A DNA stretch of 64,000 bases from a virus, in the IMG/VR virus record IMGVR_UViG_3300008117_000445, positions 1 through 64,000 of that record. One strand, given 5' to 3'. A program made the position numbers and the translations under genes. Numbering within the stretch: position 1 is the first letter of the stretch; each line of letters starts with the position of its first letter. The notes beneath the pieces are model-generated. The model saw only the letters and a list, made by a program, of their open reading frames with translations, did no database searches and was not told where the DNA came from. Positions 1-57,658 of this stretch are shown here, piece after piece.

Positions 1-13
1 ATTTAATCAAAAA

Positions 14-45
14 AATTTGACACTTTTTATAATATCAATATATTT
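14..45 (+). promoter_or_regulatory. Bacteroidetes-type sigmaA promoter (TTTG -33 / TAtaTTTA -7)
   Basis: TTTGacactttttataatatcaaTATATTTA; same architecture repeated at 410-445, 590-632, 735-776. Confidence 0.35.
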
Positions 46-76
46 ATATATTATAAATAATAAATCAAAAAAAACG

Positions 77-406
77 ATGAAAAAAATAGTTAGACTAACT
101 GAAAGAGATTTAACAAGAATTGTTAAACGAGTAATTAAAGAAAGTAACCTTAGCCCATATAGTGATGAAGATATGGCCGAAGACGAAAGACTTGACAGAA
201 TATCAAATGAATGGCGAGATTCATTTTATGATGCTTTTGATTTTGACTTTGAAGGTGCATTTCCAGAATACAATAAAGAATCAGATAAATTTGATGATAA
301 TTTAAATGATTTTATTGTTGATATGATGGGTGAAGACCCAGAACATGCTGTTAGAGTGTTACGTAAAGAACCTTGGTTTAGACCATATGTAAAATATCTT
401 AGATAA
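77..406 (+). CDS. hypothetical protein; N-terminus MKKIVRLTERDLTRIVKRVIKE resembles the shared leader family
   Basis: ORF 17..406 in track; internal Met at aa21 follows promoter; acidic C-terminal half. Confidence 0.45.
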   Translation: MKKIVRLTERDLTRIVKRVIKESNLSPYSDEDMAEDERLDRISNEWRDSFYDAFDFDFEGAFPEYNKESDKFDDNLNDFIVDMMGEDPEHAVRVLRKEPWFRPYVKYLR

Positions 407-409
407 AAA

Positions 410-445
410 ACTTGACACTTTTAAAATTATTAGTATATTTATAAA
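410..445 (+). promoter_or_regulatory. Bacteroidetes-type promoter (TTG ... TAtaTTTA)
   Basis: cTTGacacttttaaaattattagTATATTTAtaaaac, near-duplicate of the promoter at 14-45. Confidence 0.35.
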
Positions 446-589
446 ACAAAATAAAAAACCGCAAATGAAAAATTTACACATATCATTGATAGGAGGCGAT
501 TTAGCTGAGGCAACTTTCAAGGAGAGGGTGTAAGATTTTATACATATATAAAGGTTCTTTGACATATTGGTTTGAATTAAAAAAAATTA

Positions 590-632
590 AAAAAAGATTT
601 GGTGGATTAAAAAATTCTACATATCTTTGTAA
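590..632 (+). promoter_or_regulatory. strong Bacteroidetes-type promoter with A-rich UP-like element
   Basis: aaaaattaaaaaaagaTTTGgtggattaaaaaattctacaTAtcTTTGtaag; 20-nt spacer between TTTG and TAnnTTTG. Confidence 0.45.
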
Positions 633-734
633 GACAAAACGGTTTAGAAGTTAATTGCCTGATTATACAGTAATCCTCCCATCCACAGGCAGAAAGGAGG
701 TAAACAACTAAACCAAAAAAAAATTAAAAAAAGA

Positions 735-776
735 TTTGGTAGATTCAAAAATATTTTATAATTTTGTAGAACAAAC
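735..776 (+). promoter_or_regulatory. strong Bacteroidetes-type promoter with A-rich UP-like element (tandem copy)
   Basis: aaaattaaaaaaagaTTTGgtagattcaaaaatattttaTAatTTTGtagaac; direct repeat of the 590-632 unit. Confidence 0.45.
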
Positions 777-779
777 AAC

Positions 780-815
780 GGAGGTGGAGATGTTAGGGAT
801 GGTAACTCCACCTCC
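780..815 (+). other. perfect 10-bp stem-loop (GGAGGTGGAG ... CTCCACCTCC) immediately downstream of promoter
   Basis: inverted repeat read directly; candidate 5' structure of a short transcript / sRNA. Confidence 0.4.
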
Positions 816-839
816 GGAGATAGGGAAAGTTCATTGACA

Positions 840-1240
840 TATTAAAATATTGTGGTTGTAAGAAAGGGGAAACTCGTTAAGTTCATCAACCAGTTGACTC
901 AAGATGGTGAAACGAGAGTGTGGGTCAACTACTGAATCACAAAAAAACATTATAATGCGAGGGGGAGGTATAGTATCTCATCGGTCTCATAAGTCGACTT
1001 AACTTGATGCGATTTCAAGCCTACGCAACTAATAGGATGGATAGGTGGAAGGGCCTTTCCTGAAAGACGGCTTGCTAGGCCCGTGTCCATCCTTAAAAAA
1101 TTGATAGTGATCACCTCTACAGTGGTTGTCGACAAACTACGTAGGTTGAGGGTAGATAACACCCACTGCCGGTGCACCATAAAACTTAGGAAGGCAGTTA
1201 AGATTGGAAATAGGAGGGTACACCAACACTATCAACATTA
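840..1240 (+). ncRNA. ORF-free, GC-enriched, highly structured RNA segment of unknown family
   Basis: nested inverted repeats (AACTCGTT/AACGAGAG; AGTTGAC/GTCAACT), no credible ORF, lies between promoters and tRNAs. Confidence 0.3.
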
Positions 1241-1243
1241 TTT

Positions 1244-1317
1244 ACTGATGTAGCTCAATCGGTGAGTACGAGGTGTTCATACCTCAAGGTTATGGGTTCA
1301 AGTCCCTTCATCAGTAC
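1244..1317 (+). tRNA. tRNA, anticodon uncertain (loop reads UGUUCAUA: 8 nt as transcribed; GTT or TCA possible)
   Basis: acceptor ACTGATG/CATCAGT perfect 7 bp, D-arm GCTC..GAGT, T-arm ATGGG-TTCAAGT-CCCTT. Confidence 0.55.
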
Positions 1318-1319
1318 TG

Positions 1320-1900
1320 GGAGTGTACACAGTAGAGTTCAGCTTGAGAACAGATGTAACACACACTTTAAAGGGGGTTACAAGGTGTTAAGCCGTTTAT
1401 CAGATTTGGTCGTTAAAATCTGCCGTTGTTGATGAGATAGGTTTAACGTATAAACTTTCCTCCGTGATGTTAGTGGGTTTGATCACCCCTTTCACGTAAA
1501 TGTGATGAAACGAAACCCAAAGGAGTAGTCACAACTTGCGGGTATAGCATAAAATTAATGCTTCGCCATCTATCCGCTCAAAATGAAACAACAGAAGACG
1601 AATTAGCGTCGTTGAAAGGAACCTTGGCTCTCACAAGATCGCAACTTTTACTGAGAGTTGGAATGCCCCAAGGTACTCTGTTCAGATCCCTGCTCTGATG
1701 TGCACGTCAACAGGTTATGGGGAACAAACCATAAGTAAAAATCGTAGAAATGTTTCATTCTTATTAAATGGGAAAGAGATGCCCGAAGTTTTTAAGTTTC
1801 CTTCATAAAAACTTAACGAGAGTGGTACTAACGCGTGAAAATAGTACTCATTGGGAATCGGTTTGGAATATCCTCCTCTCCCCCAAGTATAAGGATTGAC
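1320..1900 (+). ncRNA. ORF-free structured RNA segment (unknown; not tRNA)
   Basis: many local hairpins (e.g. GCGGGTA...TATCCGC mini-helix at ~1541-1583), no ORF, GC-enriched. Confidence 0.25.
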
Positions 1901-1902
1901 TT

Positions 1903-1978
1903 TTTTAAAGGGGATGCCCAGCAGGTTTTTGAAAAAGAAAAACCGATGTAACTACTCACCAGTAATCTCAAGGTGGGG
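1903..1978 (+). ncRNA. conserved ~75-nt element, copy 1 (GGGGATGCCCrGCAGGTTTTT...AAAAACCGAT.T.ACTACTC...)
   Basis: near-identical second copy at 8647-8722; contains GGTTTTT/AAAAACC hairpin. Confidence 0.4.
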
Positions 1979-1984
1979 AAATTT

Positions 1985-2061
1985 GGGGGTGTAGCTCAAT
2001 TGGCTGAGCGGCTCGTTTGCAACGAGAGGGTTTTATGTGGGTTCAAGTCCCACCTCCTCCA
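1985..2061 (+). tRNA. tRNA-Ala (anticodon UGC)
   Basis: acceptor GGGGGTG/CTCCTCC with G3:U70 Ala identity pair; D-arm GCTC-AATTGGCT-GAGC; anticodon loop TTTGCAA; T-arm GTGGG-TTCAAGT-CCCAC. Confidence 0.75.
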
Positions 2062-2156
2062 CAAAGTTCGGAGTAATTAACCGAACCTAACAAGAAGATG
2101 GGTCATATAGCCTAAGGAAATTTGGTACCACTAATTCCTGTCTGTCTTCTTGATTA

Positions 2157-2233
2157 ACTACTTATGGTGTAAATTGGATTGCACATCGGTCACTAAGGCC
2201 GAAGGGTTGTAGGTTCAAGTCCTATGGGTAGTT
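2157..2233 (+). tRNA. tRNA-like gene; anticodon loop reads CACUAAG (CUA in anticodon position: amber-suppressor-like), lacks U33
   Basis: acceptor CTACTTA/TGGGTAG (2 G:U), anticodon stem TCGGT/GCCGA, T-arm GTAGG-TTCAAGT-CCTAT. Confidence 0.4.
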
Positions 2234-2240
2234 CAAATAG

Positions 2241-2357
2241 TCAGGTGGCGAGAGGAACACGCCCCGAAAGTGGAGAGTAACAATACCAACGGGACTCACG
2301 GAGATACTGCGTCCACTGCTGATGGTATCTATCACCGGTTTAAATCCGGTCCTGACT
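2241..2357 (+). tRNA. atypical long (117 nt) tRNA-like gene, acceptor AGTCAGG/CCTGACT
   Basis: perfect 7-bp acceptor, D-arm GGCG-AGAGGAACA-CGCC, T-arm CCGG-TTTAAAT-CCGG, ~35 extra nt between D- and T-arms. Confidence 0.3.
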
Positions 2358-2524
2358 ACATGAAGGTAAAAATATGAAACTTGGTAGTTCTTGTGGATTA
2401 TGATTACCCTGAATGTTTTTACAACTTTCATTCAGAAACCAAAAAATAAATGTTGTTGCAGGTTTAATAAAGGAATGGAGGAAAGTCTAACTAACGAGTA
2501 CTTCATAACCTACTGTATAAAATA

Positions 2525-2609
2525 GTCAGGTGGCGGAATTGGAAGACGCTATCCATTGGAAAGGCTGAGTTAAAAACGGCATTCAAGGTTCAAATCCTTG
2601 CCTGACTAC
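2525..2609 (+). tRNA. 85-nt tRNA-like gene (type-II-sized), acceptor AGTCAGG/CCTGACT; loop TTGGAAA (GGA, Ser-like) but anticodon stem does not pair as read
   Basis: perfect acceptor and T-arm CAAGG-TTCAAAT-CCTTG; shares 5' 15 nt and 3' end with the 2241-2357 gene. Confidence 0.35.
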
Positions 2610-2708
2610 AATCAGTTGCTTGATTCCTGGTAGTAGAGTAACAACCATTGGGATATTCGGGAAAATTCCGTGAATGGTGGTGTAAGATATAAAAGGGAAA
2701 CTTACAAT

Positions 2709-2781
2709 GGTGGAGTACCAAAGACAAAGGAAACGAGACATATGGGTGATCATATGTTGGCGCAAATCTCCACCTTTTTAA
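2709..2781 (+). terminator. stem-loop plus T-run (rho-independent terminator-like)
   Basis: GGTGGAG...CATATGGGTGATCATATG...CTCCACC followed by TTTTTAAATT. Confidence 0.4.
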
Positions 2782-2792
2782 ATTAAAAAATT

Positions 2793-2981
2793 ATGACACT
2801 AAAAGAACAAATTAATGCCGACTTTATGTCCGCATTTAAGAACAAAGAAATGGATAAGAAAAACTTCCTTGGAGTTGTTAAAGGTGAAATCCAAAATGAA
2901 GAAGGAAGGAGTGGGACCGTAACTGATGAGGTTGTTTTGTCCATCTTAAAGAAAATAAACCACCCATCGGCTAAAGACCAA
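2793..2981 (+). pseudogene. yqeY: 5' fragment of yqeY-like (GatB/YqeY-domain) gene, truncated by the IS insertion
   Basis: MTLKEQINADFMSAFKNKEMDKKNFLGVVKGEIQNEEGRSGTVTDEVVLSILKKI matches the YqeY N-terminal consensus (M.LKE.I..D.K.A.KAKDK.....L..A.KNEEI..G..LTDEEVL.VIKK); ORF then runs into IS sequence. Confidence 0.5.
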
Positions 2982-4385
2982 TGGGTTTTGTAGGATTAAT
3001 CCTAACTGGGTGGTTTATAACACCGCTTACATCCGTAAGAGATAAATCTCCATCAGATTTACTTTTATATTTTCTTAATATATTACAAGCACCATTCACA
3101 TCAGCATTAATTAATTTACCTTTTTTTGTTCTAAATAAACCTCGTTTAATGCGTTTACCTAAATATTCTTCGTGTTTCTCTATTTTTTCCAAATCCAACG
3201 ACGAACATTTTGATGTGTATGATTCTTCCTGTAGAACATAATTAATTCCGTAATATTCACATTTTGTTTCTAATTTTCTTTTTAAAATACCAAATGGTAC
3301 CGAAACAAAGTTCTGATTATTTACTTTACCGATATTAATTTCATTTTTCATACCTTTAAAATCACCTATAACTATTGTACCAATATCGTTATTAATACAA
3401 TATTTAACTATTTTATTCACACTCTGATTAAAGTAGTTATTTATATAATTTTTTCTATATTCACTTAATTTAATAAATTTTTTTGTGTTTTTATCTTTTA
3501 ATTTATTTTTTTCATATTCACTTTGTAATCTAGCTTTTTCTTTATTGTAATGATGGTTTACAGATTTAAGTGGTTTACCATCTATAATAAATGATGATTT
3601 ATTTTTAGTGTTATAAGATGTCAAAAGATTATCCAATCCACAATCAATACTTAATATATTATTATGGTTTAATTTCTTTACATTATCTTCAGCAACATAT
3701 GTTATAATTAACTCATACTCTTTACCACCATAAATGGGTTTAATCTGTAATTGTTGTAATTTATTGGTTTTAATATTTTTCGGTAGGTTAAATATGATAT
3801 CACGTTTTAATACATTATATTCTTCTCTAAATTGTTTACTAAGACCCATATATATTTTACCATTTTTAACCCTAGAACTTCTACCGGCAACTAATACTGA
3901 CCACCCAGAATCCTTATCTAAATAAGATGGGACATTAACCGGATTAGAGTACTTACCTTTTTGTTTTAATTTAAGTAATGAGAAAAATGATTTAAAATTT
4001 CTATCAACTAACCTATGTGTTTGTTGTGCGGAGTCTGTTATAAGTAATTTATAGTTCACATCATCTTTAATTAAATGATATTGATCAACATAATTTAAAT
4101 AAGAATTATTATTAAAGTAATACTGTCTAATGTTATAAACACAACTATTATATAAACGAGCAGAATGATATGATAACTTATCTATAATAAATTTTTCATC
4201 TTCATTCAATTTAAGTTTATATTTTTGTGTTAACATCATAATCTCCTATATATAAATATAGGGAAAGTGTGAAAAAACTTGTTTTATATAAAAAAAATAT
4301 TATATTTTAATCATTAACTAAAACATAAAGAAGGAAAAGTGATTCGTTTCCTCCCACAAACTAAAGATTTGTGGGTTTCCACGAA
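2960..4385 (-). mobile_element. IS200/IS605-family element, TnpB-only (IS1341-like), no tnpA
   Basis: tnpB ORF plus subterminal imperfect hairpins: CCCACAAActaaagaTTTGTGGG at 4349-4371 (left end) and CCACCCA...TGGGTGG near 2960-3015 (right end); flanked by the two yqeY fragments. Confidence 0.6.
2971..4239 (-). CDS. tnpB: TnpB/OrfB RNA-guided endonuclease (IS605 family)
   Basis: RuvC-I ILSIDCGLDNLLT, RuvC-III NADVNGACNILRK (DxDxNAAxNI consensus), C-terminal Cys/His zinc-finger region, N-terminal QKYKLKLNEDEK typical of OrfB. Confidence 0.75.
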   Translation of the reverse strand: MMLTQKYKLKLNEDEKFIIDKLSYHSARLYNSCVYNIRQYYFNNNSYLNYVDQYHLIKDDVNYKLLITDSAQQTHRLVDRNFKSFFSLLKLKQKGKYSNPVNVPSYLDKDSGWSVLVAGRSSRVKNGKIYMGLSKQFREEYNVLKRDIIFNLPKNIKTNKLQQLQIKPIYGGKEYELIITYVAEDNVKKLNHNNILSIDCGLDNLLTSYNTKNKSSFIIDGKPLKSVNHHYNKEKARLQSEYEKNKLKDKNTKKFIKLSEYRKNYINNYFNQSVNKIVKYCINNDIGTIVIGDFKGMKNEINIGKVNNQNFVSVPFGILKRKLETKCEYYGINYVLQEESYTSKCSSLDLEKIEKHEEYLGKRIKRGLFRTKKGKLINADVNGACNILRKYKSKSDGDLSLTDVSGVINHPVRINPTKPIGL

Positions 4386-4496
4386 TTAAAAATTATGAAT
4401 AACATTGGTCAAATAATGGGTGAGTTCAACAAACATTACAAAGGTTTGGTTGATAACAAACTGGTGAGTCAAATAACAAAGGAGATTTTAAATTAA
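4360..4496 (+). pseudogene. yqeY: 3' fragment of yqeY-like gene (resumes right after IS left end)
   Basis: FVGFHELKIMNNIGQIMGEFNKHYKGLVDNKLVSQITKEILN matches YqeY C-terminus (..SMKDMGKVMG.LM.K.KG.ADGKLVNQLVKEKL); central ~50 aa of YqeY missing. Confidence 0.45.
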
Positions 4497-4518
4497 TATA
4501 TTGTTTTTGTTTAATTAA

Positions 4519-4551
4519 AAAAGGAGACCAAATTAATGATCTCCTTTTTTT
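4519..4551. terminator. bidirectional rho-independent terminator
   Basis: AAAAAAGGAGAccaaattaatgaTCTCCTTTTTTTTT between the convergent yqeY fragment and the tail-fibre gene. Confidence 0.6.
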
Positions 4552-4570
4552 TTGATATTAACTAAGTTGA

Positions 4571-7500
4571 TTAGTTTGTACCTTTTTCACCGTAAACAAG
4601 GATTTTATTTCCTGTTAATGGTGGAACTGTAAACGTAACAACTGTTCCGTCAAATGTATAGTCTTCAGTCTCTGTTTGACCAAGACCATTCAACATCACA
4701 AGTTCAGTTCCAATGATGATTTCATCATTCAAAGTGAACGCTGAGATTACACCATTTGGAGTTCCAGCATATCCAATTCTTTGGAATGAATTTGTATCCA
4801 GACCAGCAATCGCATCATCAACATATAGTTTTGTAACCAACGTTAAATCATCAAACTGAGTCAATCCAGATGGTTGAGCTGTCAATCTAATATTATCAGA
4901 CATTGTTAAACCTGTTGTATAGAACTCAGCAAGGTTTGATCTGTTGTTGTTATCAGCACCATTACCAATAATTGCAAGTTGAGTGTCACCAGATACGTTA
5001 AATGTTCCTTGAACGTGTTGTGCTCTACCTGCTGCAATTGTTCCTTCACCTTCAGCATGCGAATAATCGCTTGTCCTTCAGCGTGAGAATATAATCCAGA
5101 TGCGATTGTTGAAGCACCTTCAGCGTGAGAATATAATCCAGATGCCGTTGTATTATAACCTTCAGCGTGAGAATAATATCCAGATGCCGTTGTTAAATAT
5201 CCTTCAGCGTGAGAATAATTTCCTAATGCCGTTGTTGCATAACCTTCAGCGTGAGACATATCACCAACAGAAGTTGTATTAAATCCTTCAGCGTGAGAAC
5301 CAACACCAATTGCATAACCTCCAGCAAAATCATTAGCTTGATCTCCACCTTCTGCGTGAGAGTTAACACCTTCAGCTATTGTTTTGTATCCTTCAGCGTG
5401 AGAAGCATATCCTGATGCCGTTGTTGTATTACCTTCAGCGTGAGAAACATATCCGGACGCCGTTGTTGATCTACCTTCAGCGTGAGAATAATTTCCAGAT
5501 GCCGTTGTGTAATAACCTTCAGCGTGAGAACCTAAACCAACAGAAGTCGTCTGAATACCTTCAGCGTGAGAACCATACCCGGAGGCTGTTGTAGATGAAC
5601 CTTCAGCGTGAGAATAATTTCCAGATGCAGTTGTAGAATTACCTTCAGCGTGAGAACTTTGACCCAATGCCGTTGTGTAATTACCTTCAGCGTGAGAATA
5701 ATTTCCAGATGCCGTTGTCTGAATACCTTCGGCGTGAGAAGCACTACCTATAGCTACTGAGTAATTACCTTCAGCGTGAGAACCATTACCAACAGAAGTT
5801 GTCTGAATACCTTCAGCGTGTGAACTTTGACCCAATGCCGTTGTTCCAATACCTTCAGCATGAGAATAATATGCGGATGCTGTCGTTAAAGAACCTTCAA
5901 CGTGAGAATGATATCCAGATGCCGTTGTTAATCTACCCTCAGCGTGAGAATAATTTCCAGATGCCGTTGTTCCTTCACCTTCAGCGTGAGAATAATTTCC
6001 AGACGCAACGGTATTATAACCTGACGCAGTTGAATTTAAACCACTTGCCGTTGAACCAGTTGTTCCAAGAACGATTGAACCCTCAAATGTTCTGGTACCA
6101 CCACTATTTGCTGCAACAACTTGTTTTAACTCAAGTTTGTTATCACCATTTACAATTACGGTAACACCATCAGCATCAGCAAGACCATCAATTTCATTTT
6201 CTAATGATGTGTCAGCACTTGCTCTTACACTTTCTTCAGTTGAAACTCTTGAATCCAATGATCCTTCCGCACTTTCTGCTCTTGAAGTTTCAGAAGAAAC
6301 TTTTGAATCTAATGAGCCTTCAGCAGATTCTGCTCTTGAAGTTTCCGTAGAAACTTTTGAATCTAATGAACCTTCAGCTGACTCAGCTCTACTAACTTCT
6401 TGAGAAATTAAAGCTTCAAGTGAATCGTCACCTGATTCGTTACTTGAAATTCTCGCAGATAATGAATCTTCAGCTGACTCCGCTCTTGAAGTTTCTGTAG
6501 ATACTTTACTGTCTAAAGAACTATCAGCAGATTCTCTGTTTGAAACCTCAGTAGAAATATCAGATGAAATCTTAGAATCCAATGAACCTTCAACACTTTC
6601 AGCTCTTGACGTTTCGTTAGAAACTTTTGAATCTAATGAAGTTTCAGCTGAATCTCTTTTACTTTCTTCAGTTGAAATTCTGGACTCAAGCGAATCTTCA
6701 GTACTTTCCGCTCTTGATGTTTCTGTAGAAACTTTTGAATCCAAAGAACCTTCAGCGGATTCCGCTCTACTAACTTCTTGAGAAATTAAAGCTTCAAGTG
6801 AATCATCACCAGATTCGTTTTGAGAAATTCTAGCAGATAATGAATCTTCAGCAGATTCTGCTCTACTTGTTTCAGAAGATACTTTACTGTCTAATGAACC
6901 TTCAGCAGATTCTGCTCTTGAAATCTCGTTAGAAACTTTTGAATCCAATGAACCTTCAGTAGATTCTGCCCTTGAAGTCTCGTTAGAAACTTTTGAATCT
7001 AATGATCCTTCAGCACTTTCAGCTCTACTTGTTTCGTTAGAAACTTTTGAATCCAAAGAACTATCAGCAGATTCTCTGTTTGAAGTTTCAGAAGAAACTT
7101 TTGAATCCAAAGAACTATCAGCAGATGCTCTGTTACTTTCTTCAGTAGATACTCTAGAATCTAATGAACCTTCAGCAGATTCTGCTCTTGATGTTTCTTG
7201 AGAAATCAACGCTTCCAATGAATCATCACCTGATTCGTTACTTGAAATTCTTGCAGATAATGAATCTTCAGCAGACTCAGCTCTACTTGTTTCGTTAGAA
7301 ACTTTTGCATCCAATGAATCGTCACCAGAAACTCTGTTTGAAATCTCAGCAGAAATTTCAGAAGAAATTTTTGAATCTAATGATCCTTCAGCACTTTCAG
7401 CTCTTGAAGTTTCAGTTGAAACTTTTGCATCCAATGAATCGTCAGCAGATTCTCTTGTACTTTCTTCAACAGATACTCTGTCGGTTAATGAGCCTTCAGC

Positions 7501-7818
7501 CGATTCGGCTCTTGATACTTCAGACGATAAGTCTGCTTCAAGAGAATCATTACCTGATACTCTGTTTGAGATTTCAGTTGAAATCTCGGATGAAATTTTG
7601 TTATCCAATGAACCTTCAGCTGATGTTGCTCTGGACGTTTCATTTGATACTTTCGCATCCAATGAAGCATCACCAGAGATTCTGCTAGAATCCTGACTGG
7701 ATAAGGTTGAACTTAACTCCGCGATATCCGTAATTGTTAAACCGGATGGAGTTAAAATCGTTGCGTTCGTCAGCAATAAGTCGGACTGACGGTCTAATAC
7801 AATTTTAGTTTCTGCCAT
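4571..7818 (-). CDS. tail-fibre / adhesin-like repeat protein (~1080 aa if read through); frame broken at ~5055-5080 inside the repeat array
   Basis: N-terminal ~36 x 14-aa repeats (SRAESAEGSLDSKVSxET), then ~28 x 14-aa Hep_Hag/YadA-head-like repeats (TTASGNYSHAEGxx, 42-nt DNA period), then non-repetitive C-terminus in frame of ORF 4571..4903; one repeat unit is 26 nt instead of 42. Confidence 0.6.
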
Positions 7819-7894
7819 TTTTTAATTTTTAAAATGATAGTTTATTCTGTATCTCTTTATACAGCATGTTTTTCTGGATACGTATATACATACG

Positions 7895-7930
7895 GATATG
7901 TGATATGTGATATTGGATATGTGATATAGA
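7895..7930. repeat. short tandem GATATGT heptamer repeats upstream of tail-fibre gene
   Basis: GATATGTGATATGTGATATTGGATATGTGATATAGATA; adjacent inverted repeat CCGCAT...ATGCGG at 7941-7975. Confidence 0.4.
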
Positions 7931-8091
7931 TACTAGTTACCCGCATCCCTGCCGATACATTATATAAATATGCGGTACTTTACAAAAAGTCACTAATTGT
8001 TTAATTTTTTTTTAAAAAAAATAAAAAAATGAGTTTTTTGTTGTTAATATCATTTATTTCAATTATATTTGTTGTCAGAAAAAAGAAATAA

Positions 8092-8198
8092 GGTCAGAAG
8101 CGTAATGCGGGACGGTACCCAAACCCTCAAGACACCACGGTCCAAGAGCAATTTGGACGCGAGAAGTTATAAGGTTGCATATTGTTGGTTCAAATCCA
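8092..8198 (+). tRNA. atypical long (107 nt) tRNA-like gene, acceptor GGTCAGA/TCTGACC
   Basis: perfect 7-bp acceptor, T-arm GTTGG-TTCAAAT-CCAAC; internal arms not resolvable by eye. Confidence 0.3.
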
Positions 8199-8226
8199 AC
8201 TCTGACCTCAAAAAAATTAAAATAAG

Positions 8227-8511
8227 ATGAAAGAAAAACATCAAGAAGCCATTGATGAAATTATGGATTGGTTTGACTTTGAAAGAGTTGTCAAAGTAAT
8301 GGAGTTTTTAAACTGGAAGTGGATTACCGCCGAAGAAGGTGTACCCAGTATTGGTGAAATCAAAAAAACGGCCAGACGATTATTAAAAGAAGCGATTAAA
8401 AAGAAAACATCAATTGCAACCGGAGGATTCAAGGTGACTTATTTACCAAAAGAAGATTTTTTACATCTTGAATTTGTTATTAGTGAGTTTGATGCTGTAA
8501 TCAAAAAGTAA
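8227..8511 (+). CDS. hypothetical protein
   Basis: 94-aa ORF between two tRNA-like genes. Confidence 0.45.
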   Translation: MKEKHQEAIDEIMDWFDFERVVKVMEFLNWKWITAEEGVPSIGEIKKTARRLLKEAIKKKTSIATGGFKVTYLPKEDFLHLEFVISEFDAVIKK

Positions 8512-8553
8512 CCACTTGACTTATTAAATATTGTTTGTTATAATTATATAGAA

Positions 8554-8632
8554 AGTCAGTTAGCTCAACTGGTAGAGCAATCCCCAACCCTAAGAAGGGG
8601 ACGTGCCGTAGGTTCAAGTCCTTCACTGACTT
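8554..8632 (+). tRNA. tRNA; anticodon arm TCCCC-AACCCTAAGAA-GGGGA (11-nt loop, or 7-nt CCCUAAG closed by A.A pairs: CUA, amber-suppressor-like)
   Basis: acceptor AGTCAGT/ACTGACT perfect, D-arm GCTC-AACTGGTA-GAGC canonical, T-arm GTAGG-TTCAAGT-CCTTC. Confidence 0.5.
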
Positions 8633-8646
8633 CACTTTTTCAATAA

Positions 8647-8722
8647 GGGGATGCCCGGCAGGTTTTTCAACTGGAAAAAACCGATATGACTACTCCTCGT
8701 TATCTTTAAGAGGGGGTGATAT
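8647..8722 (+). ncRNA. conserved ~75-nt element, copy 2
   Basis: GGGGATGCCCGGCAGGTTTTTcaactggAAAAAACCGATATGACTACTC... aligns with 1903-1978. Confidence 0.4.
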
Positions 8723-8732
8723 AGATACAAAA

Positions 8733-8760
8733 AAAGGGACTTTATTGTCCCTTTTTTTTG
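8733..8760. terminator. bidirectional rho-independent terminator
   Basis: AAAAAAAGGGACtttattGTCCCTTTTTTTT. Confidence 0.65.
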
Positions 8761-9690
8761 TTAGATACTTAATAACATATCCATTAATTCTTGTTGTGGA
8801 AACATATCCACCTTGTCACGTCTTGTATTTGTGTGGGTATACATTCCCTTAACTCTACCATAATAAGCATTCTCATTAAATTCAAAACCACCAGCACCAT
8901 TCTTTCTTATTTCCTCAATCAACCCCTTTCTTACATCAATGTTATCTCTATTTGCAATAAATAAGATAAGATCTTTTAATACTTCCAACTGAGTGTCAGA
9001 ATATCTATGCCAGGTTTTATGACCTCTAAATGGTTTATCCAATGTGGTAACGTGAGATTCAATTACTTCACCACCACCGTAGTTATAGAATTTATTGGCA
9101 TCTTTTGCTACCCAGGTTTTTCCCTTTCTATAACCACCTTTAGTTACATAACCATAATTACATACTTCAATACCAACGGAACATTTGTGCATATGCATTG
9201 AACCGTTATCACCCAAATGCCAACCATAACCACCATCCGGTATACATTTAACTATTTCACCATCATATTGGTCGTTCTTTCCGTTACAAGCAGGACCACC
9301 CAATACAAACTCAGTTGCGATTCTACCTCTGGTGTCCTTTGCCCACATATCAACCACTTGGTATGGGTTTGGTCCACCGGCCGTGTGATGCAAGAACAAA
9401 TATTCTTTATCTGTTGGTCCGGCCAAATATTCATCCTTTGGTAAAAAATATTGTTTGAATGACAATGTTTCGTTGTCTGAATTAAATTGTTCATTTAGAT
9501 CAGTTGTTGCAAGTCCCATCGCTTCCCAAGTTTTTGGTCCAACAATTCCATCATCTTTTAACTTATTTTCTTTTTGCCATTTTTTAACGGCCGCTTCGGT
9601 TTTTGGTCCAAAGTCACCATCATCACTAAGTTTTAAAAATCTTTGCAAGATTTTCACATTTTCTCCTTTACTTCCAAGTTTTAAAATCAT
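8761..9690 (-). CDS. endolysin: N-terminal peptidoglycan-binding repeats + N-acetylmuramoyl-L-alanine amidase (Amidase_2/PGRP-like)
   Basis: two PG_binding_1-like repeats (LKLSDDGDFGPKTEAAVKKWQ; LKDDGIVGPKTWEAMG); HHTAGG... and H/C-rich catalytic region. Confidence 0.6.
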   Translation of the reverse strand: MILKLGSKGENVKILQRFLKLSDDGDFGPKTEAAVKKWQKENKLKDDGIVGPKTWEAMGLATTDLNEQFNSDNETLSFKQYFLPKDEYLAGPTDKEYLFLHHTAGGPNPYQVVDMWAKDTRGRIATEFVLGGPACNGKNDQYDGEIVKCIPDGGYGWHLGDNGSMHMHKCSVGIEVCNYGYVTKGGYRKGKTWVAKDANKFYNYGGGEVIESHVTTLDKPFRGHKTWHRYSDTQLEVLKDLILFIANRDNIDVRKGLIEEIRKNGAGGFEFNENAYYGRVKGMYTHTNTRRDKVDMFPQQELMDMLLSI

Positions 9691-9766
9691 CTTATTTGTT
9701 TTTTTGTTTTTTATTTTCTAAATAAATATATATTTATATGTAAATAAACTTTTAAAATTTAGAATT

Positions 9767-9934
9767 ATGAATTTTACAAGAGAGCAAGTTTTGGGTATTG
9801 TTAGACACGTATTAACCTTCGCTGGTGGTATTGTAGTAGCCAAAGGAATTGCAGATGAAGCAACTGTAACTGAAGTTATCGGTGGTGTGATTACATTAAT
9901 CGGTGCTATTTGGTCAATCGTTGCAAAAAAATAA
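9767..9934 (+). CDS. small two-TM membrane protein (holin-like candidate), divergent from endolysin
   Basis: MNFTREQVLGIVRHVLTFAGGIVVAKGIADEATVTEVIGGVITLIGAIWSIVAKK; below the 60-aa track cutoff, read by hand. Confidence 0.35.
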   Translation: MNFTREQVLGIVRHVLTFAGGIVVAKGIADEATVTEVIGGVITLIGAIWSIVAKK

Positions 9935-9954
9935 TTTTATTTAATTTTTTTAAA

Positions 9955-9985
9955 TTTCCCCTTCTTAACCGGAGGGGTTTTTAAT
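9955..9985 (+). terminator. rho-independent terminator
   Basis: CCCCTtcttaaccggAGGGGTTTTT. Confidence 0.55.
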
Positions 9986-10017
9986 TTAACAGATATTTAT
10001 TAATTAAAACAAAAATT

Positions 10018-10629
10018 ATGGGAGATTACGTGGGAATTGTTGTTGCTTTTATTACTGGTGTTTTGGGTCCGTTATCAGTAATTTATTTAAAAAACTATTT
10101 GGACAAAAGAAAAAAGAAACCAGATATGGTTCACGACACATTAAGAGTTAGTGAATTAATTAATCAAAAAATTGAACATATCAAAGAGGAGTTTGATGCT
10201 GATAGGGTGTGGGTAACACAATTTCACAACGGAGGTAACTTCTACCCAACCGGAAAATCAATGGCGAAATTCTCAATTATGTATGAAACTGTAACTGCCG
10301 GAGTTAATTCAGTACAATCAAACTTTCATAATATTCCGGTAAATTTATTCTCAAAATCAATTAATGAACTATTGCAAAATGATGTCATTGAAATTGCGGA
10401 TTTTAAAGATGATTCAATTGCGACCTTTGGTTTAAAGTATATCGCCGAAGAATCAGGTTGTCAATCAGGTTATTTATTTGCAATTAAAACAATTGATGAA
10501 AGATTCATCGGTACCTTGGGACTTGATTATACAAAGAAAAAAATAAAACTTGACATTGAATCAATTAATCATTTAATGGTTCACGCTTCTTCAATCGGTG
10601 GTGTTTTAATTTCACACTTGGAACAATGA
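10018..10629 (+). CDS. membrane-anchored protein, possible GAF-like small-molecule-binding fold (weak)
   Basis: N-terminal TM helix; remainder resembles GAF-type sensor domains loosely. Confidence 0.45.
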   Translation: MGDYVGIVVAFITGVLGPLSVIYLKNYLDKRKKKPDMVHDTLRVSELINQKIEHIKEEFDADRVWVTQFHNGGNFYPTGKSMAKFSIMYETVTAGVNSVQSNFHNIPVNLFSKSINELLQNDVIEIADFKDDSIATFGLKYIAEESGCQSGYLFAIKTIDERFIGTLGLDYTKKKIKLDIESINHLMVHASSIGGVLISHLEQ

Positions 10630-11270
10630 GAAAAAGTCTAATTATTGAACGACTTATTAAAAAAATCAAAAACAAATTAATTTCTGAAAGAAAATCAGAT
10701 CAACTATCATTATATATCTCAAGATTAATTATTAATCAATTTAAAAAGAAAGAAGATTTTCAACTTGAGGATCTTGAGTTTGAGAGGGGTGATGAATATG
10801 CCTTATTTAATTTATATTGTTATTTTATTGAAGATGAAAATCTAAACGAACCGTTCTCAATCAGAGCTGAGGCCGATATGGAAACAATGGAAATTGAAAT
10901 AACATTCAACCCAAGTTATTTTCCGGATGTTATGCAAGATTTGGTTGGTGAAGTCAAGGAAACGGTTGAACATGAACTTGAACATATTGAACAACAAAAC
11001 TTTGAGGATGTTGAATTGGCGGATAAAAGTACCGGTGAAGATTTTGTTGAATATTTAACATCAGACAAAGAAGTCCCAGCGTTTGTTAGAGGATTAATCA
11101 AAAGGGCAAAAACCAAAAAGATTTCATTGAACAAAGCAATGAACGAATGGTTTAATGAAAATTTCAGACAATTTAACGACCCTTCAACTGAATGGCCAAT
11201 GGTTAAAGATGTGTGGATGGAATATGCCACCGAAATGCGAGAAAAAGAAAAAATCAAAAAATTTAATTAA
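10626..11270 (+). CDS. hypothetical acidic protein
   Basis: 214-aa ORF, 4-nt overlap with upstream gene. Confidence 0.45.
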   Translation: MRKSLIIERLIKKIKNKLISERKSDQLSLYISRLIINQFKKKEDFQLEDLEFERGDEYALFNLYCYFIEDENLNEPFSIRAEADMETMEIEITFNPSYFPDVMQDLVGEVKETVEHELEHIEQQNFEDVELADKSTGEDFVEYLTSDKEVPAFVRGLIKRAKTKKISLNKAMNEWFNENFRQFNDPSTEWPMVKDVWMEYATEMREKEKIKKFN

Positions 11271-11326
11271 TTATTTTTTTAATTGAAAAAAAGTTCTTAT
11301 ATTTGTCCTTATATATAAATAAGGAT

Positions 11327-11764
11327 ATGACAAAGTTTGAATTGTGGCTCAAACGCCAATACAAGAGATTAAAGGTTAAATATTATATTTGGGAAAGAGG
11401 AAAGAGTTGGTTTAAAGCACCGGAGGATAAAACCGGTTATGAAAAAATAACTTGTTCAATTGTTAGACAATTGGTTAACCACCCAGATTCCAAATTCACA
11501 ATGGCACCATTGTCCGGAAAAAGATATATTGTCAACAAAACCCTTGATATCTTTTTAATCATTGAAGGAAGCAAAGTTGAAATCACAAACCATGTTTATC
11601 ATTATGTGACAACATTGGGTGAGAGGGACATTGAAAAAATCACCACACATTATGATAGGAAAGTTGAAAATCAACGAATCAGTCACGAAGAACAAATTAA
11701 ATCACAAATATCCAATACCCTACAATCAATTTATGACAAAATCACAATCCAATCTGAAAATTAA
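11327..11764 (+). CDS. hypothetical protein
   Basis: track ORF 11303..11764 begins at TTG inside the TATATTTG promoter box; first ATG (MTKFELW) at 11327. Confidence 0.45.
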   Translation: MTKFELWLKRQYKRLKVKYYIWERGKSWFKAPEDKTGYEKITCSIVRQLVNHPDSKFTMAPLSGKRYIVNKTLDIFLIIEGSKVEITNHVYHYVTTLGERDIEKITTHYDRKVENQRISHEEQIKSQISNTLQSIYDKITIQSEN

Positions 11765-11948
11765 AACATCAAAGGGTTTCGGTCAATTACATAATATATA
11801 TGTTTCCGAACTTGGATTTTTGATGGTGAAAATTGAATATGACAACGGAACTTTTGTTGGTTATAACCTGGGCAAGTTTGACCCAGAAAATAATATAATA
11901 ACAAACGAATTATTCAAAGATGAACTCATTGGATCTCCACGGGATTAA
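11733..11948 (+). CDS. hypothetical protein (overlaps neighbours in alternate frames)
   Basis: internal Met of track ORF 11619..11948. Confidence 0.3.
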   Translation: MTKSQSNLKIKTSKGFGQLHNIYVSELGFLMVKIEYDNGTFVGYNLGKFDPENNIITNELFKDELIGSPRD

Positions 11949-12141
11949 ACATATTGAAGTTCAAAAACTTGTTGACAATTTTATTTGGGAAAATATGCAA
12001 AAAAAGATAAATGAGGTTGAAATCATAACCGGAATATCGGACCAGATGAAAGATATTGTTAAACAAACCGTTGAGGATTATAAAATGGAATGTACGGTGG
12101 ATCCATTGAATGTTGGTAAATTAATTATAAAATTAAAATGA
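11920..12141 (+). CDS. Smr-domain-like small protein
   Basis: LDLHGIKHIEV ... EVEIITGIS resembles Smr LDLHG / ITGKG motifs. Confidence 0.4.
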   Translation: MNSLDLHGIKHIEVQKLVDNFIWENMQKKINEVEIITGISDQMKDIVKQTVEDYKMECTVDPLNVGKLIIKLK

Positions 12142-26862: not shown

Positions 26863-26983
26863 AATGAATCTTTAAAAATAAATATTAATCTTTAGTAAAG
26901 AAATAGTCGTTGGCTGTAAATATATGTCAAAATGTTTGGTCAGATTAAATATTATCATTATATTTGTTCATATTTATTAATTG

Positions 26984-28453
26984 ATGAAGTATTTACTTTC
27001 CATATTGACACTTATTGTAACTTTTTTTACTGTAGCACAAATTACAGCAAACGGAAATTCTGGAGTTAGACCAACGGTTTATACAAACGGATCACCAAAC
27101 AATTCAATCTTTATTTGGTGTGGTGTAGGAAATAATGGCTCATTGACTTATACACCAACTTCCGGAACGGCACCTTATACATTCAACTGGTTCTCATATT
27201 CCAATACAACTTTTTCTTGGAATACATTAACCACCCAAAACGGCGCAACATCTACTTTAAATAATTTGTCTAACGGTGGTTATAGAATTGAGGTTTATTC
27301 ATCAAACGGTACATTGGTTGGTTGTGATATTGCTTGGGTTTGGAATGTAAATAATCAAGTTACAGCCTCAAACACACAAGTTAGTTGTGGGTCAACAAAC
27401 TTAATTGGAACCAATACAGTTACACCAACATCGTTTACTTATTATAATCCACCACCACCACAATCAATAATAAACACCAACACAACAATTAAAGTTTGTT
27501 TTACCGGAAATCACACTTGGGTTTCAGATTTGGGATTCTATTTAATTGGACCGGCTTCTTGTGGTAGCCCAGTGATTACCTTATCACCAAATCCAGGATC
27601 CAATAGTCAAGGTAGTATTTGTAATGGTGGAAACAACTTCAATAACCTTTGTTTTACAAATGCGGCAAGTCCCAATTTAAATGTATGTTCATCACCAACA
27701 CCATTAACTGGAACTTATGATTCGTATGGACCAACTCCGGGAACCAATATTAATTTTTCACCACTTATTGGTTGTAACGCGGCACAAGGTGGTTGGAGAG
27801 TTCAGGTGTTTGATTGTATTTCATCCGATGTTGGTAAGTTAACTAATGCAAACATAACTTTTTCAAATTTAACATCCATTTGTGGTTCACCAACAACCAT
27901 AACTTATAGTTCAGGAACAATAAATTCAAACATAAATGATAATTCATGTTCACAAGCGACGGCATCCGTTTATCAGGTACCACCACCGACAAATTTAACA
28001 ACACCAATAACAATAAATGGTACCACCACAATTCAATGGACAAGTAATCCATCGGCAACAATTGCAAATTCAACAAACCTTAATACAACGACAACAAACG
28101 TGACACAACAAACAACATTTACTTTAACTTCAACATTCAGTGTAGGTGGAACAAATGTTTGTGTTTCAACAGCTCAAACAACCTTTACACCAACACCATT
28201 AACCGCCAACTTTACGTTTGTTAATCCATCTTGCTTTGGTTTGTGTGACGGTTCGGCAACCGCAACGCCAACATCAGGAACTTTACCTTATATATATGTT
28301 TGGACACCAAGTGGTTCCACACAAACAATATCTAATTTATGTTCCGGAACATATAATGTAACGGTCACTGACGCTAATGGTTGTACTGTAAGTGGAAGTG
28401 TAACCTTAACGGACCCAAATCAGTTAATATTAACCCCAATAAACCATAATTAA
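26984..28453 (+). CDS. secreted SprB-repeat / Ig-like-domain protein (Thr/Asn/Gly-rich)
   Basis: signal peptide; repeated ..[10 protein letters not shown].., ..[27 protein letters not shown].. SprB-like repeats. Confidence 0.5.
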
Positions 28454-54712: not shown

Positions 54713-54734
54713 GTTTGGTTCAATATTTATTAGT

Positions 54735-56833: not shown

Positions 56834-56835
56834 TG

Positions 56836-57657: not shown

Positions 57658-57658
57658 A

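What the first reader, a model, noticed from the sequence alone, without database searches (positions are those of the whole stretch)
4571..7818. Tail-fibre/adhesin-like gene with two 14-aa repeat arrays and a frameshift inside the 42-nt repeat array
The 970-aa minus-strand ORF has three parts:
- ~36 copies of SRAESAEGSLDSKVSxET
- a short bridge
- ~28 copies of a 14-aa unit TTASGNYSHAEGxx, which resembles Hep_Hag / YadA-head repeats used by trimeric adhesins and phage fibres

At + strand ~5055-5080 one repeat unit is 26 nt instead of 42. The track ORF then runs out of frame: ...SHAEG-QAIIRMLKVKEQ...*.

Meanwhile the frame of the downstream ORF 4571..4903 is open all the way back to 5077. It reads ...RTSDYSHAEGEGTIAAGRAQHVQGTFNVSGDTQLAIIGNGADNNNRSNLAEFYTTGLTMSDNIRL... 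This continues the repeats and provides the C-terminal, non-repetitive, probably receptor-binding or chaperone domain.

So the real product is ~1080 aa, interrupted by a 16-nt deletion. Possible causes are a sequencing/assembly error in the repeat, a genuine inactivating mutation, or repeat-mediated phase variation / programmed frameshifting of the distal tip.

The reverse-strand ORFs listed inside this gene (5100..5282, 5379..5594, 5799..6164 and others) are repeat artefacts.
Basis: seen in the sequence. Interest (0 to 1): 0.65.

Follow-up and report, generated by a model that had tools for sequence, protein, structure and literature searches.

The report
Phage fibre gene broken by deletion
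This is one long repeat-rich phage fibre gene whose last part has been knocked out of frame by a small deletion inside its repeats, much like the broken side-tail-fibre gene of laboratory phage lambda. Related wild phages carry intact or separately broken copies, so it is a fairly ordinary lesion and not a new decoding trick.

Summary
On the minus strand, 4571-7818 holds one fibre gene:
- an N-terminal domain
- about 28 units of about 18 aa
- a short bridge
- about 22 YadA-head units of 14 aa (Pfam PF05658, E = 5e-29)
- one 26-nt unit (5057-5082) where 42 nt are expected

After that unit the 970-aa ORF runs out of frame. The -1 frame, open from 5077, continues the repeats, the GNG..RSN cap and the 110-aa tip.

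An almost identical pair of environmental contigs settles the architecture. L012 has an intact 1233-aa gene. L004 is 99.9% identical to L012 but carries a blunt 151-nt deletion. That deletion ends at exactly the same base as the window's (just before TTATTCGCATGC), with a different left end. A third relative, L001, has an in-frame TGA instead. More distant relatives keep the tip domain fused in one ORF.

I found no slippery heptamer, no homopolymer, no unusual RNA structure and no stop-codon recoding. The 42-nt unit cannot act as a reversible frame switch.

Best reading: a genuine out-of-register deletion in a fast-changing repeat array, giving a truncated fibre. The tip ORF is either silent or re-initiated at TAAcaATG. 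A sequencing error in the window itself cannot be excluded without reads. The shared breakpoint is unexplained. Interest is low to moderate.

The parts
4571..7818 (-). Whole disrupted fibre gene (3248 nt, 2 mod 3)
   Evidence: Orthologues: L012 is intact at 1233 aa; L001 has 1646 codons in one frame with one TGA.
7678..7818 (-). Conserved N-terminal domain (aa 1-47, MAETKIVLDRQSDLLLTNATILTPSGLTITDIAEL...). Probably the virion-attachment end; this is inferred.
   Evidence: The same N-terminus is found in L001, L004, L012 and L093-L097.
6202..7677 (-). First repeat array: about 28 units, mostly 18 aa (range 14-22), consensus SRAESAEGSLDSKVSxET
   Evidence: TRF period 54 nt. Anchor spacing: 18 aa x21, 22 aa x3, 14 aa x3. 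PHROG 13589. Copy number differs in relatives: 24 in L012, 43 in L001.
6067..6201 (-). Non-repetitive bridge (aa 540-584, ENEIDGLADADGVTVIVNGDNKLELKQVVAANSGGTRTFEGSIVL)
   Evidence: Conserved in L001, L004 and L012.
5074..6066 (-). YadA-head (Hep_Hag) array: 22 units of 14 aa (SHAEGxxTTASGxY), 42-nt period
   Evidence: Pfam PF05658, E = 5.1e-29. TRF. Spacing. PHROG 25468.
5057..5082 (-). Broken 26-nt unit gctgaaggacaagcga|ttattcgcat. The deletion junction lies between 5067 and 5066.
   Evidence: Relative to L012, 58 nt are missing (16 + 42n). The right breakpoint is the same as in L004.
4906..5066 (-). Out-of-frame tail of the 970-aa ORF (..IIRMLKVKEQLQQVEHNTFKEHLTYLVTLNLQLLVMVLITTTDQTLLSSIQQV, then TAA at 4906-4908)
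   Evidence: This frame has a stop in L001, so it is not a conserved overlapping gene.
4904..5077 (-). True (-1) frame: the last YadA unit, the QHVQG..GNGADNNNRSN cap and the neck LAEFYTTGLT, with no start codon of its own
   Evidence: Aligns in one frame with L001, L002 and L012. Window vs L004 over this stretch plus the first 32 tip codons: 9 synonymous and 1 non-synonymous codon changes in this frame, against 2 and 8 in the other frame.
4571..4903 (-). Tip ORF (110 aa): conserved linker MSDNIRLTAQPSGLTQFDDLTLVTKLYVDD, then a widespread beta module of about 65 aa. Its ATG lies 2 nt after the TAA of the long ORF.
   Evidence: 416 cluster representatives hit at E<=1e-3. The profile hits phage fibre and tail proteins in the PDB. 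Window vs L001: 17 synonymous and 7 non-synonymous changes.
4517..4550 (-). Probable intrinsic terminator after the tip ORF (aaaaaaGGAGAtCattaatttgGTCTCCtttttt)
   Evidence: Seen in the sequence. The simple scan did not report it (loop longer than 8 nt).

Best explanation
The region is one structural gene for a long phage fibre. Its parts, in order, are:
- an N-terminal anchor
- a shaft of about 28 units of about 18 residues
- a bridge
- a beta-roll of about 23 YadA-head units
- a GNG..RSN cap and neck
- a distal beta-sandwich module of about 65 residues

In this genome an out-of-register deletion removed 16 + 42n nt, which is 58 nt relative to the closest intact relative. The deletion lies between a 'GQA' unit and the last canonical unit. 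Its 3' edge falls exactly at the start of the conserved core TTATTCGCATGCTGAAGG.

Shown:
- The long ORF now leaves the true frame.
- It reads 53 codons in the wrong frame.
- It stops at a TAA 2 nt before the ATG of the tip ORF.

Inferred:
- The virion carries a fibre that lacks its cap and tip, or no stable fibre at all.
- The tip is either not made or made separately at low level by re-initiation.
- The lesion is recent. It is tolerated because the fibre is accessory or because intact alleles co-circulate, in the way laboratory lambda PaPa lives with its frameshifted stf gene.
- It is a by-product of the high insertion/deletion rate of these tandem arrays.
For: One gene, normally:
- L012 has a single 1233-aa ORF.
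- L002 is fused, with Val (GTT) in place of the Met.
- L093-L097 end in the same module within one ORF.

Nature of the lesions:
- L004 equals L012 (99.9% identity over 5.9 kb) minus a blunt 151-nt deletion with no microhomology. Repeat collapse in a k-mer graph would therefore not produce it.
- The window has the same kind of junction, with another left end.
- L001 has a GGA-to-TGA nonsense codon in the same array.
- Array copy numbers differ widely: 28/22 in the window, 24/38 in L012, 43/44 in L001.

True frame under purifying selection:
- Window vs L001, tip ORF: 17 synonymous and 7 non-synonymous changes.
- Window vs L004: 9 synonymous and 1 non-synonymous.

No recoding signals.

Neighbouring genes in the window are tightly packed, with normal start/stop overlaps, so the record is not generally indel-ridden.
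Against: - No reads are available for the window, so a local error cannot be ruled out.
- Two independent deletions sharing one right breakpoint to the base is more than a simple random-deletion model predicts.
- The low dN/dS of the tip between two disrupted genomes (window and L001) could also mean the tip is still expressed.
- Three of four close relatives seen full-length across the array are disrupted. That is a lot for a purely deleterious lesion.
Confidence: 0.6

Rival explanations
1. The frameshift is a sequencing or assembly artefact of this record. The real genome has an intact gene of about 1090 to 1130 aa or more.
For: - Tandem 42-nt arrays are hard to assemble.
- Contigs of relatives break at this very base (L003 and L005).
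- Window-like contigs L100 and L101 do not reach the junction.
- The -1 frame is perfectly open and conserved.
Against: - The junction has at most 1 nt of microhomology, so collapsing identical k-mers cannot produce it.
- A 16/58-nt loss is not a typical read error.
- The same class of junction occurs in an independent assembly (L004).
- The rest of the window shows no broken genes.
Confidence: 0.2
2. The split is functional. The shaft (970 aa) and the 110-aa tip are made as two proteins. The tip is translated by termination-reinitiation at TAAcaATG and binds the fibre non-covalently, or acts as a separate factor.
For: - The stop and start are 2 nt apart.
- The window and L004 deletions both land in the one wrong frame that ends there.
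- The ATG is present in the window, L001, L004 and L012.
- The tip is under purifying selection between two disrupted genomes.
Against: - The ATG is GTT in L002 and V in P0014, so the Met is not a conserved start.
- The cap and neck (58 codons, strongly conserved) would be lost.
- All intact relatives fuse the tip.
- In L001 the stop is 335 codons upstream, so coupling cannot work there.
Confidence: 0.1
3. The site TTATTCGCATGC is a deletion hot spot or contingency site. It repeatedly unplugs the tip in natural populations, giving heritable heterogeneity of fibre tips.
For: - The right breakpoint is identical in two independent events: the window and L004. The left ends differ, and L004 is otherwise 99.9% identical to intact L012.
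- Two further contigs from sister samples end at exactly this base, which suggests co-occurring alleles.
Against: - Only two events were seen.
- Out-of-register deletions cannot revert by slippage.
- No recombinase site, inverted repeat or alternative cassette lies nearby.
- Contig ends at a shared base also occur elsewhere, simply because related strains co-occur (L100 and L101 both start at window 4732).
Confidence: 0.07
4. Full-length fibre is restored by programmed -1 frameshifting or by unusual decoding, for example through the odd tRNA-like genes next to the fibre gene.
For: - The downstream frame is open and conserved.
- The window encodes tRNA-like genes with non-standard anticodon loops at 1244-1316, 2524-2608 and 8554-8632.
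Against: - There is no X XXY YYZ heptamer and no XXXYYY hexamer in any frame, and no homopolymer of 5 or more.
- RNA fold z-score is -0.34.
- The shift is absent from L012, L002, L001 and L093-L097.
- The junctions of the window and L004 differ in sequence on the 5' side.
- There is no stop-codon recoding in the window.
- An expanded anticodon loop would give a +1 shift, not the -1 shift needed here.
Confidence: 0.03

Closest known systems
Side tail fibre gene stf of phage lambda: intact in Ur-lambda, split by a frameshift into orf-401 and orf-314 in laboratory lambda PaPa (Hendrix & Duda 1992, from my own knowledge)
   Same: - A long fibre gene is split into a large 5' ORF and a smaller 3' ORF by a frameshifting indel.
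- Intact alleles exist in close relatives.
- The phage evidently persists with the lesion.
   Different: - Here the lesion is a 16/58-nt deletion inside a 42-nt tandem array, not a 1-bp change.
- It was found in environmental assemblies, not in a laboratory stock.
- Whether this fibre is dispensable is unknown.
YadA-head / Hep_Hag repeats (Pfam PF05658) of trimeric autotransporter adhesins
   Same: The 14-residue SHAEG..TTASG units match the family model (E = 5e-29), and the array ends with the typical GNG....RSN cap.
   Different: - No YadA membrane anchor and no signal peptide.
- The protein is a virion fibre with a phage-type N-terminus and a phage tip module. It uses the fold but is not an autotransporter.
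Hypermutable poly-G tracts in receptor-binding protein genes of Campylobacter phages (phase-variable fibres; from my own knowledge, see also PMC10877375)
   Same: Repeat-associated frameshifts switch off the distal part of a phage receptor-binding protein and create mixed populations.
   Different: Those tracts are homopolymers that change frame reversibly at high rate. Here the unit is 42 nt, so ordinary slippage keeps the frame, and the observed deletions are irreversible.
Fibre protein gp28 of cyanophage P-SCSP1u (PDB 8i4m) and the N-terminal region of Klebsiella phage K1 depolymerase (PDB 9k4a)
   Same: They carry the same beta module of about 65 residues (NG..F.L......V.LNG..Q....DYT..G..ITF..AP..G..I) as the window's tip. 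Profile E-values are 1.5e-6 and 1.6e-9.
   Different: In those proteins the module is internal or near the N-terminus. Overall architecture and the rest of the sequence are unrelated.

Membership tests
YadA_head / Hep_Hag repeat proteins (PF05658) | Tandem 14-residue units that match the family HMM above the gathering score | tested here: met
   100.4 bits against a cut-off of 25, E = 5.1e-29, 5 stretches. 22 anchors at 14-aa spacing.
Trimeric autotransporter adhesin | C-terminal YadA-type membrane anchor (beta-barrel translocator domain) and an N-terminal signal peptide | tested here: not met
   Pfam finds only YadA_head in the 970-aa ORF and nothing in the 168-aa C-terminus. The N-terminus MAETKIVLDRQSDL is shared with phage fibres.
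This phage fibre family (L001, L004, L012, L093-L097) | MAETKIVLxRQSDL N-terminus, Ser/Glu-rich repeats of about 18 aa, and a C-terminal beta module, all in one ORF | tested here: inconclusive
   All three sequence features are present. The single-ORF feature is broken in the window by the frameshift.
Programmed -1 ribosomal frameshift | Slippery heptamer X XXY YYZ in the zero frame within the overlap of the two frames | tested here: not met
   None in the 172-nt overlap. No XXXYYY in any frame, and no homopolymer of 5 or more.
Programmed -1 ribosomal frameshift | Stimulatory downstream RNA structure | tested here: not met
   Minimum free energy -40.3 kcal/mol against a shuffle mean of -39.0; z = -0.34.
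Programmed -1 ribosomal frameshift | The two-frame arrangement is conserved in relatives | tested here: not met
   L012, L002, L001 and L093-L097 have the tip in the same frame as the repeats. L004 differs from L012 only by a recent deletion.
Phase-variable contingency locus (simple-sequence repeat) | A repeat tract whose unit length is not a multiple of three (or a homopolymer), so that slippage toggles the frame reversibly | tested here: not met
   The unit is 42 nt, and there are no homopolymers of 7 or more in the gene. The observed deletions are out of register, with 0-1 nt of microhomology.
Stop-codon recoding (suppressor tRNA dependent) | In-frame TAG or TGA codons in otherwise continuous long genes | tested here: not met
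   Treating TAG or TGA as sense merges no convincing gene pairs in the window. TGA ends 28 of 96 long ORFs. The lesion here is a frameshift, not a stop.
Invertible or shufflon-type fibre tip switching | Inverted crossover sites and alternative tip cassettes next to the fibre gene | tested here: not met
   Only AT-rich chance inverted repeats in 1-12000. No second copy of the tip module in the window.
Termination-reinitiation (translational coupling) pair | The stop of the upstream ORF lies within a few nt of the downstream start, and the downstream protein is actually made | not testable with these tools
   The geometry is met: TAA, then 2 nt, then ATG. Expression is unknown. The Met is Val in L002 and P0014.

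The most novel reading that the evidence does not exclude
The base just 5' of TTATTCGCATGC, at the last YadA unit, is a natural deletion hot spot. It repeatedly and independently disconnects the cap and tip from the fibre shaft in wild phage populations: in the window and in L004, with intact alleles such as L012 co-circulating. Each time the shaft ends up in the one wrong frame that terminates 2 nt before the tip's ATG. The population would then carry a heritable mixture of tipped fibres and untipped or split fibres, which would be a contingency mechanism for host recognition built on a 42-nt repeat array.
Probability: 0.1. Interest if true: 0.6.

Novelty: new member of a known kind. Interest (0 to 1): 0.3.

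Why it matters
For annotation, 4571-7818 should be treated as one disrupted fibre gene, not as two genes plus several small antisense ORFs.

For phage ecology, it documents an uncultured, low-GC freshwater phage lineage, possibly infecting Bacteroidota. Its fibres combine an 18-residue shaft repeat with an adhesin-type YadA-head beta-roll. Their arrays change copy number quickly, and three of four close relatives carry a truncating lesion.

If the shared breakpoint proved to be a hot spot, it would be an example of repeat-driven heterogeneity in a phage host-recognition organ. As it stands it is an ordinary lesion in a hypervariable gene.

Tried and rejected
- Megablast and tblastn against 50,697 GenBank phage records: no match for the locus, a 20-kb stretch of the window, or the tip.
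- Protein search with the out-of-frame tail, to count other frameshifted alleles: no candidates.
- Exact look-ups of the window's 970-aa and 110-aa products: not on record.
- Exact window junction in IMG/VR: 0 hits.
- Shared 3' junction in GTDB genomes: 0 hits.
- TnpB relatives in GTDB genomes, for a host hint: none.
- AlphaFold model of the 167-aa C-terminus with a 3-sequence alignment: pLDDT 39, unusable, so no fold search was run.
- Stop-codon recoding, prompted by the in-frame TGA of L001 and the suppressor-like tRNAs: rejected for the window.
- Homology between the window's broken unit and L001's TGA unit (shared 'acaag..cgat'): rejected. L001's unit is a normal 42-nt unit with two substitutions, 24 units upstream of the window's junction.
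- T4 gene-60-type bypass (GGA to GGA): rejected, because there is no stop after the take-off codon and the feature is not conserved in L004 (by eye).
- A conserved overlapping ORF in the wrong frame, whose product has a hydrophobic stretch: rejected, because that frame has a stop in L001.
- Invertible-segment switching: rejected.
- Repeat collapse in a k-mer graph as the source of L004's deletion: rejected, because the junction k-mers do not exist in the intact sequence.
Full report
**1. What is in the sequence**

The minus strand of 4571-7818 carries a 970-aa ORF (4906..7818) followed by a 110-aa ORF (4571..4903). Tandem Repeats Finder reports a 54-nt period over 6235-7197 and a 42-nt period over 5075-6022.

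The protein has these parts:
- a 47-aa N-terminus
- about 28 Ser/Glu-rich units, mostly 18 aa (aa 48-539)
- a 45-aa bridge
- 22 units of 14 aa, SHAEGxxTTASGxY (aa 585-915)

Pfam assigns the second array to YadA_head, PF05658 (E = 5.1e-29).

The last unit, gctgaaggacaagcgattattcgcat, is 26 nt instead of 42 (window 5057-5082). After it the ORF reads QAIIRMLKVKEQ... and stops at TAA (4906-4908). The -1 frame has its last stop at 5078-5080. It then reads RTSDYSHAEGEGTIAAGRAQHVQGTFNVSGDTQLAIIGNGADNNNRSNLAEFYTTGLTMSDNIRL... through to 4571.

Only the unit counts and the period of the first array were misstated.

**2. Relatives show the normal state of the gene**

No GenBank phage resembles the locus, but environmental contigs do.

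- **L012** (Ga0315906_10010438) has the whole gene as one 1233-aa ORF. It runs from MAVTKIVLNRQSDL through both arrays, the cap ...GNGADNENRSNLAEFYTTGLTMSDNIRL and the tip.
- **L002** (JGI 3300043327) has its last 195 codons in one frame, with GTT (Val) where the window has the ATG of the 110-aa ORF.
- **L093-L097**, five more distant IMG/VR relatives, share the N-terminus and the 18-aa-type repeats and lack the YadA array. They all end in the same kind of C-terminal module within a single ORF of 647-1523 aa.

The 110-aa ORF is therefore the C-terminus of the fibre and not a gene of its own.

**3. Relatives are also often broken**

L004 (IMGVR_UViG_3300008259_003680) is 99.9% identical to L012 over 5.9 kb. 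Within the gene it equals L012 minus a clean 151-nt deletion: 3058 nt of prefix plus 493 nt of suffix make exactly its 3551 nt, with no microhomology. It therefore shows the same picture as the window: a 1072-aa ORF ending ...SHAEVIRMLKVKEQLQQVEHNTF...SSIQQV*, followed by a 109-aa tip ORF.

Aligned to L012, the window's broken unit is the start of a 'GQA' unit (gctgaaggacaagcga) joined to the last 10 nt of the following unit (ttattcgcat). That is a loss of 58 nt, or 16 + 42n.

The left ends differ, and the window's array is only about 75-85% identical to that of L004 and L012. L004 split from intact L012 only very recently. The two deletions are therefore independent. Even so, they share the right breakpoint to the base (just before TTATTCGCATGC) and are both 1 mod 3.

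A third relative, L001 (ENA ERZ27280167), has 1646 codons in one frame with a single TGA. This is GGA to TGA in an otherwise normal unit, 24 units before the cap. Array sizes (first array / second array) vary: 28/22 in the window, 24/38 in L012, 43/44 in L001.

**4. Is it an artefact?**

I cannot see reads for the window, so a local error remains possible. I give it about 0.2.

Several points argue against it:
- The junctions have 0-1 nt of microhomology, and their k-mers do not exist in the intact sequence. Collapse of identical repeats in an assembly graph does not produce them.
- A 16/58-nt loss is not a typical read error.
- An independent assembly shows the same class of lesion.
- The rest of the window has tightly packed, unbroken genes.

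IMG/VR contigs L003 and L005, from sister samples, end exactly at the breakpoint base. The likely reason is that alleles with different preceding bases co-occur there. This pattern is not special to the site, however. Window-like contigs L100 (JGI 3300008116) and L101 (GCA_031544975.1) are 99.95-100% identical to the window over 2607/3391-4732, and both begin at window 4732.

**5. Is the shift decoded?**

- The 172-nt overlap of the two frames has no X XXY YYZ heptamer, no XXXYYY hexamer in any frame, and no homopolymer of 5 or more.
- The RNA folds no better than shuffles (z = -0.34).
- The two-frame arrangement is not conserved in relatives.
- The 5' sides of the window and L004 junctions differ in sequence.
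- Stop-codon recoding was considered because of L001's TGA and the suppressor-like tRNA genes nearby. It is not seen in the window: TGA ends 28 of 96 long ORFs, and reading TAG or TGA as sense merges no real genes.
- The repeat unit is 42 nt, so ordinary slippage changes fibre length and leaves the frame unchanged. This is not a simple-sequence phase-variation tract.
- No inverted crossover sites or alternative tips exist nearby.

**6. Selection**

Codon differences fall into these classes:

| Comparison | Frame | Synonymous | Non-synonymous |
|---|---|---|---|
| Window vs L001, tip ORF | true (-1) | 17 | 7 |
| Window vs L001, tip ORF | shifted | 3 | 22 |
| Window vs L004, shared 258-nt block after the junction | true (-1) | 9 | 1 |
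| Window vs L004, shared 258-nt block after the junction | long-ORF frame | 2 | 8 |

The cap and tip have therefore been protein-coding in the -1 frame for nearly all of their history.

Either the lesions are recent, which is my reading, or the tip is still expressed. The only visible route to expression is re-initiation. The TAA of the long ORF lies 2 nt before the tip's ATG (gtt TAA ca ATG), and the same holds in L004. Against a designed split:
- The Met is Val in L002 and P0014.
- The conserved 58-codon cap and neck would be lost.
- L001's stop is 335 codons upstream, with no in-frame ATG, GTG or TTG before the tip.

**7. What the tip is**

The last 65 or so residues belong to a widespread module, consensus ..NG.NT.FTL......V.LNG..Q....DYT.SG.TITF..AP..GD.....Y.
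- It has 416 cluster representatives at E<=1e-3.
- Among the best 150, it sits at C-terminal, internal or N-terminal positions, often in tandem.
- A profile of it hits the Klebsiella phage K1 depolymerase N-terminal region (9k4a, E = 1.6e-9), cyanophage P-SCSP1u fibre gp28 (8i4m, E = 1.5e-6) and a tail adaptor (7y22).
- PHROG tail-fibre families give weak hits.

It is a phage fibre module. Whether it binds the receptor here is not shown. My AlphaFold model was unusable (pLDDT 39).

**8. Verdict**

The region is one phage fibre gene with an adhesin-type YadA-head array. A genuine out-of-register deletion in a fast-evolving tandem array has most likely truncated it (confidence 0.6).

The closest known analogue is the frameshifted stf side-tail-fibre gene of lambda PaPa versus intact Ur-lambda (from my own knowledge). 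It is a new member of a known kind, and interest is low to moderate.

The one odd point is the identical right breakpoint in two independent deletions, which also coincides with the start of the most conserved 18-mer of the unit. Read-level data from the named samples would show whether this is a hot spot or a coincidence.

Noticed in passing
window 1244-2609 and 8554-8632 (+ strand): A cluster of tRNA and tRNA-like genes, several with non-standard anticodon arms:
- 1244-1316: Rfam tRNA 47 bits. The arm is 18 nt instead of 17. ARAGORN reads a 2-nt anticodon 'tc'; alternatively an 8-nt loop UGUUCAUA that contains UCA.
- 1985-2061: tRNA-Ala (TGC).
- 2158-2232: anticodon CTA, amber-suppressor-like, but only 23.6 bits.
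- 2239-2358: tRNA ends with an insert of about 50 nt.
- 2524-2608: long variable arm and no normal anticodon loop; ARAGORN reads 'tgga'.
- 8554-8632: 43.6 bits, with 12 nt where 6 are expected in the loop.

No in-frame TAG or TGA was found in long ORFs of this window.
   Followed up: partly
window 1679-1740 (+): A match to the Rfam freshwater-1 RNA motif (RF02979): 70.3 bits, just under the gathering score of 72, E = 4.5e-15, full length. It points to a freshwater origin.
   Followed up: no
window 1908-1975 and 8645-8712 (+): Two copies of a conserved element of about 75 nt (AAGGGGATGCCCrGCAGGTTTTT...AAAAACCGATrTrACTACTC, with a GGTTTTT/AAAAACC hairpin). Each lies next to a tRNA-like gene, on either side of the fibre locus. 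A weaker third copy lies near 1775-1830.
   Followed up: partly
window 2971-4239 (-): A TnpB / IS605 OrfB gene (OrfB_IS605 plus the Cas12f1-like TNB domain) lies directly downstream of the fibre tip, where L001, L002, L004 and L012 have a DUF2827 gene. The same tip-TnpB junction is found at 99.95-100% identity in JGI 3300008116 (L100) and GCA_031544975.1 (L101). No relative was found in GTDB genomes.
   Followed up: partly
L001 6107-6109: The orthologous fibre gene of ENA contig ERZ27280167 k141_1507439 has a single in-frame TGA (S*TRAIGDYSHAEG). It is followed by 335 open codons of repeats with no ATG, GTG or TTG, and then the tip. This is either a very recent nonsense mutation or read-through.
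   Followed up: partly
L003 position 1, L005 position 1; L100 and L101 position 1: Contigs from sister samples end at exactly the deletion breakpoint (L003, L005). Two window-like contigs both start at window 4732, inside the tip ORF. This suggests that several fibre alleles co-occur in these lakes and break the assemblies at allele boundaries.
   Followed up: partly
window 4808-5066 vs the rest of the tip: The fibre 3' end is mosaic.
- The 259 nt after the junction are 95.8% identical to L003, L004 and L005.
- Homology to L004 then stops. The distal tip matches L001 instead (94% aa) and is only 66% identical to L004's tip.
- No similarity outside the fibre gene (beyond about 180 nt upstream of it) was found between the window and the fetched parts of these contigs.

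The gene or its tip therefore appears to move between phages.
   Followed up: partly
window 26981-28453 (+): A 490-aa ORF with an SprB repeat (PF13573, E = 4e-9), a repeat typical of Bacteroidota gliding adhesins. It may hint at the host.
   Followed up: no
window 8761-9690 (-) and 56827-57657 (+): Two cell-wall hydrolases with PG_binding_1 domains: Amidase_2 next to the fibre gene, and Hydrolase_2 further on. There is also an RNA ligase (40137-41255) and an AAA ATPase (42140-43219). Most large ORFs have no PHROG or Pfam match.
   Followed up: no
window 54711-55640 / 55555-56088 and 56827-57657 / 57620-58225 (+): Two pairs of sizeable ORFs overlap by 86 and 38 nt in different frames. I did not examine whether these are normal overlaps, mis-set starts or further frameshifts.
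   Followed up: no
L004 5985-6482 and L012 1939-2436: Just upstream of the fibre gene in L004 and L012, a 165-aa protein ends in the same beta module as the fibre tip (..HLYLNGLLQDEGVTEDYTIINNIITYNEAPDPN..). It follows a 789-aa structural protein with a Pro/Thr-rich linker. The window has no second copy of the module.
   Followed up: no
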